Shown: positions 42,401-48,400 of the stretch, one piece after another | Layout: every line of letters begins with the position of its first letter | Numbering within the stretch: the stretch's first letter is position 1 | Assembly: GCF_024223415.1 (NCBI RefSeq) | Contig: NZ_CP100500.1 | Direction: 5' to 3' (one strand) | Length of the DNA: 64,000 nucleotides | From: Escherichia coli | GTDB lineage: Bacteria; Pseudomonadota; Gammaproteobacteria; Enterobacterales; Enterobacteriaceae | Made by a program: the position numbers

Positions 42401-45400
42401 GTCAGGCTGCCAACGTATTGCCCGTCGCGCAGCACGCTGACGCGATCGGAAAGCTCATACACTTCCGCCATACGGTGGCTGATGTAGATAATCGCCATCC
42501 CTTCATCGCGCAGCCGCATAATCAGTTCAAACAGACGGTGAGTTTCACGGGAGGAGAGGGCAGCGGTGGGTTCGTCCATCACCAGAATGCGGCTGTTGCG
42601 ATGTAGTGCGCGGGCGATTTCGACCTGCTGTTGCTCGGCAATGGTCAGCGTCATGACCTTATCGCTGGCGTTAAACTGCGCGCCGAGGCGGTCGATCACT
42701 TTTTGCGCCTGCACTAGCATCTCTTTACGCTGCACCAGCCCGCCGTGGGAAAGCTCGCTGCCGAGAAAAATATTTTCTGCCACCGACAGATTCGGTGCCA
42801 GCTGCATCTCCTGATAAATCAGCGTAATACCGGCGCTTAAGGCATCTTTTGGCGTGCGAATGTGAAAGGGCTTGCCGTCTATGAGGATCTCGCCGCTGGT
42901 GGCGGTATACGCCCCCGCCAGCACCTTCATCAGCGTGCTTTTTCCCGCGCCGTTTTCCCCCATCAGGGCATGGATCTCGCCAGGGTAGACCGTCAAATCC
43001 ACCCCTTTGAGCGCATAAAATTTGCCGAAGGCTTTGGCAATATTGCGCATCTCCAGAACTGGCGTGCTGTTCATGGTGGACTCCTGCGAGGTTGTCGATA
43101 TCAGCACTCCATCACAGGAAAGTAAATGCAAAATGTCAGAAGCCGTTCATATTTGTCATATTGCGATTTTTCTTCACGGAGCGTGATATGGCGCACCCCG
43201 GACGTCATTTTTTTGCCAGCGCGCGCGGGCGATTGCTGCTTTTGAATTTGCTGGTGGTGGCGGTGACGTTGATGGTCAGCGGCGTGGCGGTAATGGGCTT
43301 TCGTCATGCCAGCCAGATGCAGGAGCTGGTGCAGCAGCAAACGGTGGATGATATGACCGGCAGCCTGAATCTGGCGCGCGACACGGCAAACGTGGCAACG
43401 GCGGCGGTGCGATTGTCGCAGGTGGTGGGAGCGCTGGAATATAAAGGCGAAGCCGAGCGGTTGCAGGAGACACAGCGGGCATTAAAAAGCTCGCTTGCAC
43501 AACTGGCGAACGCGCCTTTAGCGCAGCAGGAAGCCGGGCTGGTGACGCGCATCATCACGCGTAGCAACGAACTGCAAACCAGCGTCGGTGGAATGCTGGA
43601 GCGCGGGCAAAGGCGGCATCTGGAGCGCAACGCGCTGTTAAGTTCGCTGTATCAAAACTTAAGTTATCTGCGGCATCTGCAAAAAGTCACTCACGCGCAA
43701 GATGATATTTTGCTTAACGAGATGAACCGACTGATTGTTGCCGCTATTGCCACCCCCGCGCCGCAGGCGATTATTCATCAACTGGTCGGGGTAATGTCTG
43801 CGTTGCCGACCCACAGCGATACGCCGTTGGTTAACACGCTACTCAATGATTTTAATCGTGAACTGCGTAAACTCGCGCCGCTTTCAGCCGCTCTGGAGCA
43901 AAGCGATCTGGCAATCAGCTGGTATATGTTTCACATCAAAGCGCTGGTGGCGATCCTCAATGGCGACATCAACCGTTACGCCGAACAGGTGGCGACGCTC
44001 TCCGGTCAGCGCGTGGCGCAAAGTTACCAGGATTTGCGCTCCGGCGAGAGGCTGATCATGATTTTCGCCCTGTTAGCGGTGGTGATCACCGCGTTTGCAG
44101 GTTGGTATATCTATCGCAATCTCGGCTCTAACCTGACGGCGATTTCCAGCGCCATGAGCCGCCTGGCGCACGGTGAAGCGGATGTCAGCTTTCCGGCGTT
44201 ACAGCGGCGTGATGAGTTGGGTGAACTGGCGCGCGCCTTTAACGTTTTTGCCCGCAATACCGCGTCACTCGAACGAACGTCACGGCTGTTGAAAGAGAAA
44301 ACCATGCAGATGGAGATTGCCCAAACCGAGCGGCAGGGGCTGGAAGAGGCGCTATTGCACAGCCAGAAGCTGAAAGCGGTTGGGCAACTGACGGGCGGGC
44401 TGGCCCATGATTTTAATAATCTGCTGGCGGTGATTATTGGCAGCCTGGAGCTGGTGAATCCGGACTCGCCAGACGCGCCGCGAATACAGCGGGCGCTGCA
44501 AGCTGCCGAACGTGGGGCGCTACTGACACAACGACTGCTGGCGTTTTCCCGCAAGCAGTCCTTACATCCGCAAGCCGTTGAACTGAAAACATTGCTGGAA
44601 GAGTTAAGCGAATTAATGCGCCACTCCTTACCGGCAACGCTGGCGCTGGAGATTGAAGCGCAGTCTCCGGCGTGGCCCGCGTGGATTGACATCAGCCAAC
44701 TGGAAAATGCCATCATCAACCTGGTGATGAACGCCCGTGACGCGATGGAAGGGCAGACGGGAATCATCAAAATTCGTACCTGGAATCAGCGCGTTACTCG
44801 CAGCAGTGGGCAGCGTCAGGACATGGTGGCACTGGAGGTCATCGATCATGGCAGCGGTATGTCGCAGGCGGTGAAAAGCCAGGTATTTGAGCCATTCTTT
44901 ACCACCAAACAGACGGGCAGCGGCAGCGGGCTGGGTTTGTCGATGGTCTATGGTTTTGTGCGCCAGTCCGGTGGGCGCGTTGAAATTGAAAGCGCGCCGG
45001 GGCAGGGGACAACGGTCAGATTACAGCTTCCCCGCGCGCTGACGGCGGCGAAAAACCTATCGCCAGCGGCAGTAGAACAGGCTTCTGTCAGCGGCGATAA
45101 ACTGGTGTTAGTGCTGGAAGATGAAGCCGCGGTGCGCCAGACCATCTGCGAACAGTTGCACCTGCTGGGCTATTTGACGCTGGAAGCAAGCAGCGGCGAA
45201 CAGGCGCTGGATCTGCTGGCGGCATCAGCAGAAATCGATATTTTTATCAGCGATTTAATGCTCCCCGGCGGCATGAGCGGCGCAGAAGTGGTCAATGCGG
45301 CCCGCAAACTTTACCCGCACCTGACGCTGCTACTCATCAGCGGTCAGGATTTACGCCCCAGCCATAACCCCGCGCTGCCAGACGTGGCGCTGCTGCGCAA

Positions 45401-48400
45401 ACCTTTTACCCGCGCGCAGTTGGCGCAGGCGCTGGGGCAAGAGAATTGAGAATCCTCCTCTACTCGTAACAGGCACCTTTGCCTACCTTGTATTAACTTT
45501 GTTGCGAGGCCGAGTTTATGAAACGCCACTCCACGCTCTTTTTTTTCACCCTGCTCACGCTGACCACCGTACCGGCCCAGGCCGATATTATCGACGACAC
45601 CATTGGCAATATTCAGCAGGCGATTAACGATGCTTATAACCCTGACCGTGGGCGAGATTATGAAGATTCGCGTGACGACGGCTGGCAGCGTGAAGTGAGC
45701 GACGATCGGCGCAGACAATATGACGACCGCCGTCGCCAGTTTGAAGATCGTCGCAGGCAACTGGACGATCGCCAGCACCAGCTTGATCAGGAGCGTCGGC
45801 AGCTAGAAGATGAAGAGCGGAGAATGGAAGATGAGTATGGGCAATGATGTTGGGTATGGAGCAGGCATCGCCCCTCTGGGGAGAGGGGTAGGGTGAGGGG
45901 GCCAGCACGCACATTCCCTCTCATCACGCCACCCCAATCTCCATCCCATCAAACCCCGCCTCAAACCCCGACGGCAGTGTGTTTTCCATCAGCCATGCAT
46001 CAAACTGATGGCTGATGTGCGTCAGAATCACGCGCGGCGAGCGGATAACCTGATTCAGCGCAAGCACGGTATTTAAATCACAGTGATTACGCGGTGCATC
46101 CTCGCACGGCGGGTGGCTGCAATCAATCACCATTACCTGCGGCTGATTATTGCGTAATAATTTCAGCGTTTTTTCCGGCAAGCCAGCGGTGTCAGACAGC
46201 CACGCCACCCGGCTGTGCGCCGTTTCCAGCAGATAACCGAAGGTCAGTTTTGAGTGGTTGAGCGGCAGGGGCGTGACCTGTAACCCCTGCAAATCAAACA
46301 CCACAAACGGTTCCACCGTGTGGCTGAAATCAAGCAGGCCCGGATGTTTAAACAGATCGTCGCAGCCCTGTTCATCCGGCGGGCCGTAAACCGGGATCGG
46401 ATCGCCCACACCCCAGCGCAGCGGAAACAGCCCCTGGACGTGATCCATATGGTAGTGCGTCAGCAAAAACTGCTGGAACGATCCTGGCGACCAGCGATCG
46501 GTGAGATCGTGCAGCCCGGCGTCGATCAGGGTGATCGCCTCGTTAAACTTCACTACGCCGCTGCACGGTTGGCGGCGATACTGCGGTGAGCGCCGCGCTC
46601 TGGCGCAGGCCGCACACTCGCAGCCCCATGCCGGAACGCCCTGTGCGCCGCCGGTGCCGGTGAGCGTGAGGGTCAGGCTCATGTTACAGCGCCTTCGTGA
46701 AGCGGAAGTGGCTCTGCTCGTAGCCTTCGCGCAGATAGAAACGGTGTGCGTCGTGGCGCTTCACGTTGGTCGAAAGCTCGGTCATTTCGGCCCCGGCCTG
46801 GCGGGCTTCTTCTTCTGCCCACGCCAGTAACTTGCTACCGACGTTCAGGCCGCGCGCCTGCGGCATCACCACCAGTTCCTGAATTTCACCGATCCAGTTG
46901 ACATGATGCAGATGAAACTGCAAATGCAGGCCGATCATGCCGACAACTTCGCCATCCAGCAGCGCCAAATGGTAGCGCATGTTCGGGTCGCGTAGGTTAG
47001 CGTTAAAGCCCACGCGAAACGCGTGATGGTCAAACTCCGCCTGTTTTAGCTCACAAATCAGCGCGTAAACCGCGTCGGTGTCGTACTGCGTGGCCGGGCG
47101 AAGCTCACAAGCAGGCATGGTGTTTCTCCTTCTGATGGATCAGCGTCAGCAGCGTGTCGACCGACTGGCGCAGGCTGCCGTCATTATTGAGCGTATGGCA
47201 ATCCTGTGGAGTATAGCGGGCGGCGCGCACCAGCCGGGCGTTAATTTCACTGGCGTTTTCGCGGCCACGGTTTTCCAGGCGCTGGCGCAGGATCTCCGGC
47301 GAAACCTGCAAGCAAATGGGCAGCAGCGCCGATTGATAGCGCGCCCGCGCCTGCGGCAAATGGGCGCGTGAGCCGTTGACCAGCACGTCGAATCCGGCGT
47401 GCAGCCAGAGGTCGATCTCGACGCCGACGCCATAATACAGACCGTTGGCGTGCCAGCTTAAGGCCAGCAGATTTTGCCCCGCGCGGGTAAAAAACTCCTG
47501 CTCACTCAGGGCGATATGGTTTTCGCTTCCAGCGCTGGCATCGCGCGTGATGTAGCGATGCGCCACCAGTAACTGAGTTTGTTCCCGCAGGCGGAGTTCC
47601 GCCAGCAGGCTATCTTTCCCGGAGCCGGACGGCCCCATTAACCAAATCAGTTTTCCCGTCATCAGAACACCCTTTTACCCTGACGCCAGACGTGGTCGAT
47701 ATGAATGTGGTTGCCCTTGCGATGCGCCAGCACCAGGTCGGCGCGTTTGCCCTCGCCAATCACCCCGCGATCCTGGAGATTGAGCGCCTGCGCCGGATTT
47801 TTAGTCACCAGCTTCACCGCCTGCGGCAGCGTAAAGCGGTTGCTCTGGTCATCGGCCACGCGGAACGCCGCATCCAGCAGGCTGGCGGGGTAGTAGTCGG
47901 AAGAGAGGATATCCAGCAGGCCAAGCTGCGCCAGTTCACTGGCCGCCACGTTGCCGGAGTGCGAACCGCCACGCACGATATTTGGCGCGCCCATCAGCAC
48001 GTTCATATCATGCTTGCGCGAGGCTTCTGCCGCTTCGAACGTGGTGGGAAATTCGGCGATCACGCTGCCAAGCTGATGGGATTCGGCAACGTGGGCGTGG
48101 GTGGCGTCATCGTGGCTGGCAAGCGCAATTTTTCGCGCGCGGCACAGGGCGGCGATGGATTCGCGATTCGGCTGCGACCAGCGTGCGGCGAGCGCCAGTT
48201 GCTCTTCTTCGTACTGCTGCATCTGCGCATCAGTGAGCGAGTATTTGCCCTGATAATATTCACGGTACTTCTCGCGGTTGGCGAACTGGCGCTGGCCCGG
48301 CGAGTGGTCCATCAGCGACACCAGCGTCACCGGCTCGCGCTGCACCAGTTTTTCAAACAGCGGCAGCGTGGTGTGATGCGGCAGCTCGCAGCGCAGGTGC

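What the first reader, a model, noticed from the sequence alone, without database searches (positions are those of the whole stretch)
43188..45449. Hybrid sensor kinase that ends at its receiver domain (no HPt) with its partner regulator 6 kb away
The kinase has 2 TM segments, a ~280-aa periplasmic domain, HAMP, HisKA, HATPase and a C-terminal receiver domain, but the protein ends at the receiver domain and no HPt domain or gene follows. The only response regulator in the cluster (36308-37015) lies at the opposite end. Phosphotransfer therefore must either go directly from the HisKA histidine to the regulator, with the attached receiver acting as a phosphate sink or internal regulator, or borrow an HPt module encoded elsewhere. 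The operon's RbsB-like binding protein could act as ligand-presenting co-sensor, by analogy with TorT-TorS and LuxP-LuxQ.
Basis: inference. Interest (0 to 1): 0.65.

Follow-up and report, generated by a model that had tools for sequence, protein, structure and literature searches.

The report
Known E. coli mannose/riboflavin sensor kinase LmvK
The gene is a near-identical copy of the already published E. coli O157:H7 sensor kinase LmvK (also called RbfS), and its missing phosphotransfer (HPt) domain has already been noted in print, so the finding is accurate but not new.

Summary
Window 43188-45449 (+) encodes a 753-aa membrane kinase with two TM segments, a ~250-aa helical periplasmic domain, HAMP, HisKA, HATPase and a C-terminal receiver. 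It stops 4 residues after the receiver and has no HPt.

It is not new. The protein is 99% identical to O157:H7 LmvK/RbfS. The regulator 6 kb away (36308-37015) and the binding protein are identical to O157 LmvR/RbfR and LmuZ. Yang 2023 (mBio) describes the hybrid architecture and draws an "unknown Hpt". Liu 2022 (PNAS) reports direct in vitro transfer from kinase to regulator.

New here:
- All 80 orthologues from Enterobacteriaceae species end at the receiver.
- H407 and receiver residues D645, D689, S718 and K738 are invariant.
- No HPt-like ORF lies within 10 kb in any locus.
- The regulator, ABC transporter and kinase keep the same order.
- The regulator's direct repeat (43147-43161) sits at a fixed distance from the transporter start in 72 of 73 loci.
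- The periplasmic domain models as a TorS/McpS-type double four-helix bundle.

Most likely the kinase histidine phosphorylates the regulator directly and the receiver modulates this, as in VirA. The binding-protein co-sensor idea remains plausible but untested.

The parts
43188..45449 (+). lmvK / rbfS: hybrid sensor histidine kinase, 753 aa (TM1, periplasmic domain, TM2, HAMP, DHp, CA, REC; no HPt)
   Evidence: Translation, Pfam, RefSeq CDS with the same ends, 745/756 identical to the O157:H7 protein WP_000940958.1.
43302..44051 (+). Periplasmic sensor domain (aa 39-288), all-helical double four-helix bundle (HBM type)
44112..44258 (+). HAMP domain (aa 309-357)
   Evidence: Pfam PF00672, E 1.5e-8.
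44382..45035 (+). Kinase core: DHp/HisKA (aa 399-458, phospho-histidine H407 at 44406-44408, H-box AHDFNNLL) and HATPase_c (aa 501-616)
   Evidence: Pfam. H407 is invariant in 80 orthologues and corresponds to H410 of O157 LmvK, where H410A loses function. Best NCBIfam matches are PRK13557, CckA and VirA-like, all below their cut-offs.
45105..45434 (+). C-terminal receiver domain (aa 640-749), phospho-acceptor D689 at 45252-45254; the protein ends 4 aa later
   Evidence: Pfam PF00072, E 1.9e-10. E644 is kept in 95% and D645, D689, S718 and K738 in 100% of 80 orthologues. D689 corresponds to D692 of O157 LmvK.
36308..37015 (+). lmvR / rbfR: OmpR-family response regulator (REC with D54, plus winged-helix domain), partner of the kinase
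   Evidence: RefSeq WP_000805929.1, identical in O157:H7. NCBIfam scores: OmpR 191, VirG 180, TorR 163 bits. 36% identical to TorR. Published phosphotransfer and DNA binding.
43147..43161 (+). Regulator binding site: direct repeat TCATAT-TTG-TCATAT (ATATGA-N3-ATATGA on the lmuX strand) in the 113-bp divergent intergenic region
   Evidence: The only exact match in the 64-kb window; 8 matches at up to 2 mismatches against 3.07 expected. Present 69-86 nt (mostly 71-77) upstream of the ATPase start in 72 of 73 orthologous loci, whatever the spacer length. Matches the published DNase I footprint at -41 to -62 of PlmuX.
41554..43074 (-). lmuX: sugar ABC transporter ATPase, first gene of the regulated operon
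   Evidence: NCBIfam AraG/XylG/RbsA-like; RefSeq annotation.
40583..41557 (-). lmuY: ABC transporter permease
   Evidence: NCBIfam RbsC-like, 271 bits; RefSeq.
39623..40564 (-). lmuZ: RbsB-like periplasmic sugar-binding protein, the candidate co-sensor
   Evidence: NCBIfam RbsB 149.6 bits, below its cut-off of 337; ChvE 44 and TorT 42 bits. WP_001237475.1, identical in O157. 92-97% identical across genera.
38885..39568 (-). lmuI: D-lyxose/D-mannose isomerase
   Evidence: NCBIfam NF051472, 439 bits, above its cut-off of 350.
38010..38870 (-). lmuA: class II ketose-1,6-bisphosphate aldolase
   Evidence: NCBIfam NF005284, 575 bits, above its cut-off of 406.
37012..38013 (-). lmuK: PfkB-family sugar kinase
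   Evidence: NCBIfam weak ribokinase/PfkB hits; RefSeq 'carbohydrate kinase family protein'; published fructokinase activity.

Best explanation
This is the E. coli allele of the published two-component system LmvK/LmvR (also named RbfS/RbfR) with its target operon lmuKAIZYX. It sits between yjcS and yjdP, where K-12 carries the allose genes.

The kinase spans the membrane and exposes a TorS/McpS-type double four-helix-bundle sensor to the periplasm. When stimulated (mannose or lyxose in vivo, riboflavin in vitro, according to the papers) it autophosphorylates on H407.

My committed reading, which is inferred, is that H407 passes the phosphoryl group directly to D54 of LmvR. The tethered receiver (D689) would then act as a phosphorylatable internal modulator, competing for phosphate and/or gating access of LmvR, as in Agrobacterium VirA. 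It would not be the first step of an obligatory His-Asp-His-Asp relay.

Phospho-LmvR binds the direct repeat TCATAT-N3-TCATAT just upstream of the lmuX promoter and switches on the ABC transporter and catabolic genes. In LEE-positive strains it also acts at ler.

Shown: identity, architecture, absence of HPt, synteny, conservation of the binding site, and the published biochemistry. Inferred: direct transfer in vivo and the role of the receiver.
For: Identity with the published system:
- Kinase 99% identical to the O157 protein; regulator and binding protein identical; same chromosomal site and gene order.

Partner assignment:
- Published H410A and D54Q loss of function, and a regulator footprint at PlmuX.
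- The same repeat at 43147-43161 is conserved at a fixed distance from lmuX in 72 of 73 loci.
- Regulator, ABC transporter and kinase keep the same order wherever the flanks allow, among 150 species that hold a relative of the sensor domain.

Direct transfer:
- No HPt in the kinase.
- All 80 orthologues end 5-25 residues after the receiver motif.
- An HPt profile built from the five E. coli HPt domains recovers each left-out member at E<=2e-7. Among 16,342 ORFs of the window and all other loci held at that point (L001-L085) its best hit is E 0.63.
- The kinase-plus-receiver module aligns end to end with the VirA-like model (218 bits, residues 375-750) and the regulator scores 180 bits on VirG. 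VirA lacks HPt and phosphorylates VirG directly (PMC4705274).

A working receiver:
- D645, D689, S718 and K738 are invariant.
Against: - Invariant phospho-acceptor residues are equally what a true relay receiver would show.
- CckA, the other close relative of the kinase core, does use a separate phosphotransferase (ChpT; my knowledge).
- Yang 2023 explicitly models an unknown Hpt.
- The Liu 2022 construct and controls could not be checked because no supplement is held. No D692 mutant has been reported in either paper.
- In vitro transfer at a 1:10 kinase-to-regulator ratio does not prove the in vivo route.
- All carrier species also encode RcsD, ArcB and BarA HPt modules (my knowledge), so a borrowed HPt cannot be excluded from gene content.
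- My HPt profile would miss very divergent or ChpT/Spo0B-like transferases.
- Deleting lmvK did not change LEE transcripts in mannose although deleting lmvR did, so LmvR can also be activated by another route.
Confidence: 0.6

Rival explanations
1. Obligatory multistep relay. H407 phosphorylates the tethered receiver D689. An HPt module encoded elsewhere in the chromosome (RcsD, or the HPt domain of ArcB, BarA, EvgS or TorS) then carries the phosphoryl group to LmvR D54.
For: - The receiver's catalytic residues are invariant in 80 orthologues.
- RcsC/RcsD shows that E. coli can run a hybrid kinase with a separate HPt.
- This is the model drawn by Yang 2023.
- The kinase core is also close to CckA (302 bits), which uses a separate transferase (my knowledge).
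Against: - Direct in vitro transfer is reported without any HPt.
- No HPt-like ORF within +/-10 kb in the window or in 80 or more loci, although the module moves between genera as a unit.
- The VirA precedent shows that the same architecture works without HPt.
Confidence: 0.25
2. Binding-protein-mediated sensing (a question about input, independent of the phosphotransfer route). Sugar-loaded LmuZ docks on the TorS-like periplasmic domain and activates the kinase, as TorT does for TorS, ChvE for VirA and XylFII for LytS. The kinase itself does not bind mannose or lyxose.
For: - The kinase gene is adjacent to and divergent from the ABC operon in every locus with enough flank. The catabolic genes come and go (Raoultella and some others have only regulator, ABC transporter and kinase).
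- The binding protein is 92-97% conserved across genera.
- No paper shows sugar binding by the kinase.
Against: - McpS and PilJ share the fold and McpS binds small ligands directly.
- Riboflavin is reported to stimulate purified kinase without the binding protein.
- Deleting lmuKAIZYX, which removes lmuZ, gave no colonisation defect, unlike deleting lmvK or lmvR.
- A fused binding-protein-linker-sensor AlphaFold2 model gave no confident docking (pTM 0.42). This is uninformative rather than negative.
- Adjacency is also explained simply by the operon being the regulated target.
Confidence: 0.35
3. The attached receiver is a degenerate, non-phosphorylatable remnant with only a structural role.
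For: None specific. Some hybrid kinases carry pseudo-receivers (my knowledge).
Against: The acidic pair (E644/D645), the phospho-acceptor D689, S718 and K738 are all present. All but E644 (95%) are invariant across 80 orthologues that differ by 20-35% elsewhere.
Confidence: 0.03

Closest known systems
[not shown]
   Same: It is the same locus. The kinase is 99% identical, and the regulator and binding protein are identical. It has the same insertion site between yjcS and yjdP, the same gene order and the same regulator box at the lmuX promoter.
   Different: - The window comes from a non-O157-type allele, 100% identical to strains from a healthy human, calf, pig and poultry meat.
- The O157 kinase carries a 3-residue DFN duplication in the periplasmic domain plus 8 substitutions.
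VirA/VirG/ChvE of Agrobacterium tumefaciens
   Same: - A membrane kinase with a large periplasmic domain, a kinase core and a C-terminal receiver, with no HPt.
- Direct His-to-Asp transfer to an OmpR-family regulator.
- The receiver acts as a modulator or recruiter.
- The sugar signal is delivered by the binding protein of a sugar ABC transporter.
- The kinase-plus-receiver module is homologous over its full length (NCBIfam VirA-like, 218 bits).
   Different: - Below the family cut-off (218 against 647 bits).
- HAMP here instead of VirA's GAF-like phenolic-sensing linker.
- A co-sensor role for LmuZ is untested.
- The regulated genes are the transporter's own operon.
TorS/TorT/TorR of E. coli and Vibrio
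   Same: - A double four-helix-bundle periplasmic sensor.
- Kinase gene divergent from the gene of an RbsB-fold periplasmic binding protein.
- OmpR-family regulator 36% identical to TorR, binding TTCATA-type direct repeats. The resemblance to tor boxes rests on my recollection.
   Different: - TorS continues into an HPt domain after its receiver, whereas this protein stops.
- The sensor domains share fold only (13% identity).
- TorT is a dedicated sensor partner without a transporter, whereas LmuZ belongs to an ABC importer.
RcsC/RcsD/RcsB (E. coli) and LuxQ/LuxP/LuxU (Vibrio)
   Same: These are hybrid kinases that end at the receiver. LuxQ also uses a periplasmic binding protein as co-sensor.
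   Different: - Both depend on a separate HPt protein, encoded next to the system in Rcs. No such gene accompanies this system in any of 80 or more loci.
- The LuxQ sensor is a tandem PAS fold, not a helical bundle (my knowledge).

Membership tests
LmvK/LmvR-lmuKAIZYX (RbfS/RbfR), OI-167 | Near-identity of kinase, regulator and binding protein to the O157:H7 proteins | tested here: met
   Kinase 745/756 identical. The regulator (WP_000805929.1) and binding protein (WP_001237475.1) have the same accessions in both genomes.
LmvK/LmvR-lmuKAIZYX (RbfS/RbfR), OI-167 | Island between yjcS and yjdP with the order lmvR, lmuK-A-I-Z-Y-X, lmvK | tested here: met
   RefSeq annotation of the identical region, NCBIfam assignments and the paper's description.
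LmvK/LmvR-lmuKAIZYX (RbfS/RbfR), OI-167 | Regulator box ATATGA-N3-ATATGA upstream of lmuX | tested here: met
   Exact at 43147-43161 and unique in the window. Matches the published footprint. Conserved in 72 of 73 orthologous loci.
LmvK/LmvR-lmuKAIZYX (RbfS/RbfR), OI-167 | Response to mannose, lyxose or riboflavin | not testable with these tools
   Known only from the papers.
TorS-type unorthodox kinase | HisKA, receiver and C-terminal HPt in one chain | tested here: not met
   No HPt by Pfam. The alignment with TorS ends in the receiver, while TorS runs about 150 residues further.
TorS-type unorthodox kinase | Score above the NCBIfam TorS equivalog cut-offs | tested here: not met
   138 bits against 676.5, and 80.7 against 982.
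TorS-type unorthodox kinase | Double four-helix-bundle periplasmic sensor domain | tested here: met
   [not shown]
VirA-like sensor kinase | Kinase core followed by a receiver, no HPt | tested here: met
   Pfam architecture. The NCBIfam VirA-like model aligns residues 375-750 to model positions 427-809 of 828.
VirA-like sensor kinase | Score above the NCBIfam VirA-like equivalog cut-off | tested here: not met
   218.6 bits against a cut-off of 647.
VirA-like sensor kinase | GAF-like linker between TM2 and the kinase (the phenolic input) | tested here: not met
   Only a HAMP domain lies between TM2 and DHp in this allele. Longer orthologues carry PAS_7 there.
VirA-like sensor kinase | Sugar signal delivered by an ABC-transporter binding protein docking on the periplasmic domain | tested here: inconclusive
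   Conserved adjacency and a TorS-like fold are suggestive. The fused AlphaFold2 model shows no confident docking (pTM 0.42).
Hybrid kinase with separate HPt protein (RcsC/RcsD, LuxQ/LuxU type) | Hybrid kinase ending at its receiver | tested here: met
Hybrid kinase with separate HPt protein (RcsC/RcsD, LuxQ/LuxU type) | A stand-alone HPt gene linked to the system | tested here: not met
   An HPt profile from ArcB, BarA, EvgS, TorS and RcsD (leave-one-out E<=2e-7) gives a best hit of E 0.63 among 16,342 ORFs of the window and all other loci held at that point (L001-L085).
Hybrid kinase with separate HPt protein (RcsC/RcsD, LuxQ/LuxU type) | Phosphotransfer to the regulator requires the HPt | not testable with these tools
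   Needs biochemistry. Published in vitro data suggest it does not.

The most novel reading that the evidence does not exclude
LmvK would be an enterobacterial counterpart of VirA, a two-input sensor. Sugar would be read indirectly, through LmuZ docking on the TorS-like periplasmic bundle. A second ligand, riboflavin, would be read directly by the kinase. The phosphorylatable receiver would gate direct His-to-Asp transfer to LmvR, so the output requires or integrates both inputs. This would reconcile the two published and apparently unrelated signals, and it would make the 'missing HPt' a design feature and not a gap.
Probability: 0.2. Interest if true: 0.5.

Novelty: already known. Interest (0 to 1): 0.25.

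Why it matters
The system links sugar and vitamin sensing to type III secretion in E. coli O157:H7, so how it transmits its signal has practical weight. The two papers disagree on the route (direct transfer against an unknown Hpt) and neither tested the receiver aspartate or the binding protein.

The comparative data here narrow the question:
- The module is self-contained: no HPt travels with it in any of the 80 comparison loci, drawn from 150 Enterobacteriaceae species that carry a relative.
- Its receiver is under strict selection.
- Its sensor has the fold that TorS uses to read a binding protein.

The data also show that the module is an ordinary, widespread enterobacterial sugar-utilisation unit. 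It was not invented in, and is not confined to, EHEC. This tempers the evolutionary claims made for it.

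Tried and rejected
- **Fused AlphaFold2 model.** I joined mature LmuZ, a 30-residue Gly/Ser linker and the sensor domain, using 14 paired rows. The result was pTM 0.42 and pLDDT 70. Even the binding-protein half was poorly modelled, and no coordinates or PAE are available. This is uninformative and is not counted for or against.
- **HPt search in the neighbourhood.** A home-made profile found nothing. 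It is limited to canonical HPt domains; ChpT- or Spo0B-like transferases would be missed.
- **Sequence similarity between the sensor domain and TorS.** BLASTP finds none and Pfam gives only a 4HB_MCP_1 hint at E=2. The resemblance is structural only.
- **Matching the lmuX box to the published ler site.** The site TCTCACATAATTTATATCATT (Liu 2022) gave no convincing register by eye. Yang 2023 proposes a different ler site (ATTTTA-N3-ATTAGA). I did not pursue this.
- **Covariation between kinase DHp and regulator.** This is not usable because the DHp helices are essentially invariant among the 80 orthologues.
- **Construct used for the in vitro phosphotransfer in Liu 2022.** No supplement is held.
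- **Possibility of a truncated gene that lost an HPt.** Rejected. All 80 orthologues end at the same place.

Full report
**What is there.** Window 43188-45449 (+) is a single ORF of 753 codons starting at ATG. Pfam finds HAMP (309-357), HisKA (399-458), HATPase_c (501-616) and Response_reg (640-749). No HPt family appears even at E<=10, and the stop codon comes four residues after the receiver envelope. Hydropathy gives two membrane segments at about 16-38 and 289-309, so the periplasmic domain is about 250 aa, not 280. Downstream lies yjdP, a small secreted repeat protein, and then phnP.

**Where it comes from.** The window is E. coli chromosome. The kinase gene is 100% identical to seven complete genomes, and RefSeq annotates the same CDS. 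The cluster lies between yjcS and yjdP and contains:
- an OmpR-family regulator (36308-37015, +);
- on the minus strand, a PfkB kinase, a class II ketose-bisphosphate aldolase and a D-lyxose/D-mannose isomerase;
- on the minus strand, an RbsB-like binding protein, a permease and an ATPase;
- the kinase, divergent from the ATPase across 113 bp.

**It is a published system.** A text search for the O157:H7 locus tags led to three papers:
- Yang et al. 2023 (mBio, PMC10128022) name the same genes LmvK/LmvR and the operon lmuKAIZYX. They describe LmvK explicitly as a hybrid kinase with H410 and D692. They show that H410A and D54Q lose function. They map the regulator footprint at -41 to -62 of PlmuX onto a perfect direct repeat ATATGA-N3-ATATGA. 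Their model figure states that LmvK signals to LmvR 'via an unknown Hpt'.
- A 2024 review repeats the domain list including REC.

The window's kinase is 745/756 identical to the O157:H7 protein. The difference is a DFN duplication in the O157 periplasmic domain plus eight substitutions, so H407 and D689 here correspond to H410 and D692 there. The regulator and binding protein have the same RefSeq protein accessions in both strains.

**Independent check of the partner.** Before reading Yang 2023 I had noticed TCATATTTGTCATAT at 43147-43161 in the divergent intergenic region. It is the reverse complement of their repeat and the only exact match in the 64-kb window.

I aligned the sensor domain and scanned one genome per species. 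The scan found relatives in 150 species, and the 80 best loci, all Enterobacteriaceae by record title apart from a few oddly labelled records, were kept. Findings from these loci:
- Wherever the flanks suffice, the order is regulator (+), variable catabolic genes (-), binding protein, permease and ATPase (-), then kinase (+).
- Raoultella and some others have only regulator, transporter and kinase, so these form the conserved core.
- The repeat is present in 72 of 73 intergenic regions, 69-86 nt (mostly 71-77) upstream of the ATPase start codon, although the spacer varies from 113 to 1262 bp.

The regulator 6 kb away is thus the cognate one, and its conserved target is the transporter operon. 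The separation is the normal layout of this module, not an oddity.

**HPt question.**
- All 80 orthologous kinases end 5-25 residues after the receiver's RKPF motif. They fall into two length classes, about 755 aa and about 855 aa. One sampled relative carries PAS_7 between HAMP and DHp, which probably accounts for the extra ~100 aa.
- H407 and the receiver residues D645, D689, S718 and K738 are invariant, and E644 is kept in 95%. The receiver is therefore a working one.
- I built an HPt profile from the C-termini of E. coli ArcB, BarA, EvgS, TorS and RcsD. Each left-out member is recovered at E<=2e-7. Among 16,342 ORFs of the window and all other loci held at that point (L001-L085), the best hit is E 0.63. 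No canonical HPt travels with the module.
- In NCBIfam the region from DHp to the C-terminus scores best on PRK13557, CckA and the VirA-like model (218 bits, residues 375-750 on model 427-809/828), all below their cut-offs. The regulator's second-best model is VirG.
- VirA has no HPt and phosphorylates VirG directly from H474. Its receiver is dispensable, both inhibitory and activating, and binds VirG (PMC4705274).

Taken with the reported in vitro transfer, direct His-to-Asp signalling with the receiver as modulator is the best-supported reading. I put it at about 0.6 and a borrowed HPt at about 0.25. Invariant receiver residues fit both, and CckA-type relatives do use a separate transferase.

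**Periplasmic domain and the co-sensor idea.** An AlphaFold2 model of residues 30-300 from 52 orthologues is all-helical, with pLDDT 85 and pTM 0.73.
- Foldseek against the PDB ranks the TorS sensor domain from the TorS-TorT complex first (3o1h_A, E 8e-4, TM 0.52; 3i9y TM 0.66 normalised to the target). PilJ and McpS follow.

The domain is therefore a double four-helix bundle, the fold TorS uses to read its binding protein TorT. By sequence the relation to the Tor system is weak:
- kinase 26% identical over TM2 to receiver, with no similarity in the sensor;
- binding protein 23% identical to TorT;
- regulator 36% identical to TorR.

- The same fold binds small ligands directly in McpS.
- Riboflavin is reported to act on purified kinase alone.
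- Deleting lmuKAIZYX, binding protein included, did not reproduce the colonisation defect of the lmvK or lmvR deletions.
- A fused binding-protein-linker-sensor model gave no confident docking (pTM 0.42), which is uninformative.

I rate the co-sensor idea at about 0.35. Neither paper tested it.

**Comparison and verdict.** The locus is a member, in effect an allele, of LmvK/LmvR-lmuKAIZYX.
- It works like VirA/VirG/ChvE in architecture but fails that family's score cut-off and lacks the GAF linker.
- It resembles TorS/TorT/TorR in sensor fold and layout but lacks the defining HPt.
- It shares the 'ends at the receiver' feature with RcsC and LuxQ but has no linked HPt gene.

Novelty: already known. 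Interest is low to moderate. The phosphotransfer route and the role of the binding protein are still open and easily tested, but the observation itself and the puzzle it raises are in the literature.

Noticed in passing
window 24285-25741 and 57498-58954: Two 1457-nt IS3-family insertion sequences, 100% identical and in inverted orientation, flank a 31.8-kb segment (fdhF, mdtPON, ytcA, yjcS, the lmv/lmu island, yjdP, the phn operon, yjdN). Relative to the genes outside (crfC, proP and basSR on one side, gltP and nrf on the other), this segment lies opposite to the K-12 map order as I remember it. That suggests an IS-mediated inversion carrying the island.
   Followed up: partly
window 36308-45449; E. 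coli genome collection; loci L005-L084: The island is in 410 of 5426 complete E. coli genomes. Most are O157:H7 or O145, but carriers also include 4.5-5.0-Mb genomes from horse, pig, goat, cow, baboon, frog, river water, meat and a healthy student. Relatives of the kinase sensor domain occur in 150 Enterobacteriaceae species. This contradicts the published statements that rbfSR occurs only in EHEC and O55:H7 and is 'EHEC-associated'.
   Followed up: partly
window 43848-43862 (aa 221-225 of the kinase); L085: The O157:H7 kinase carries a 3-residue DFN duplication (NDFNDFNDE against NDFNRE) in the periplasmic sensor domain. The window allele and the orthologues I inspected by eye lack it, so the experimentally studied protein appears to be the derived form.
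   Followed up: no
loci L002, L022, L029, L042-L084 (Kosakonia, Raoultella, Phytobacter, Buttiauxella, Atlantibacter, Cedecea and others): Orthologous kinases in these genera are about 855 aa rather than about 755. One sampled relative (L002) and two partial homologues carry a PAS_7 domain after HAMP, which probably accounts for the extra ~100 aa. If so, the E. coli, Citrobacter and Enterobacter form lacks a cytoplasmic sensing module.
   Followed up: partly
literature (PMC9860305 against PMC10128022): The two papers map different regulator sites at the ler promoter: TCTCACATAATTTATATCATT against ATTTTA-N3-ATTAGA. Neither closely matches the strongly conserved lmuX box TCATAT-N3-TCATAT. Yang 2023 also found that deleting lmvK did not change LEE transcripts in mannose although deleting lmvR did.
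   Followed up: no
window 43120-43146, upstream of the regulator box: A second conserved block, AAATGCAAAATGTCA, lies just upstream of the regulator direct repeat. It is kept in most orthologous intergenic regions. It may be further half-sites or another regulator's site, and it is not covered by the published 22-nt footprint.
   Followed up: no
loci L001-L084, binding-protein and permease genes: The binding protein and permease are 92-97% identical to the E. coli proteins across genera. The kinase sensor domain is only 63-81% identical and the regulator 66-80%. This is unusually strong conservation for a sugar transporter, or a sign of recent spread of the transporter genes.
   Followed up: no
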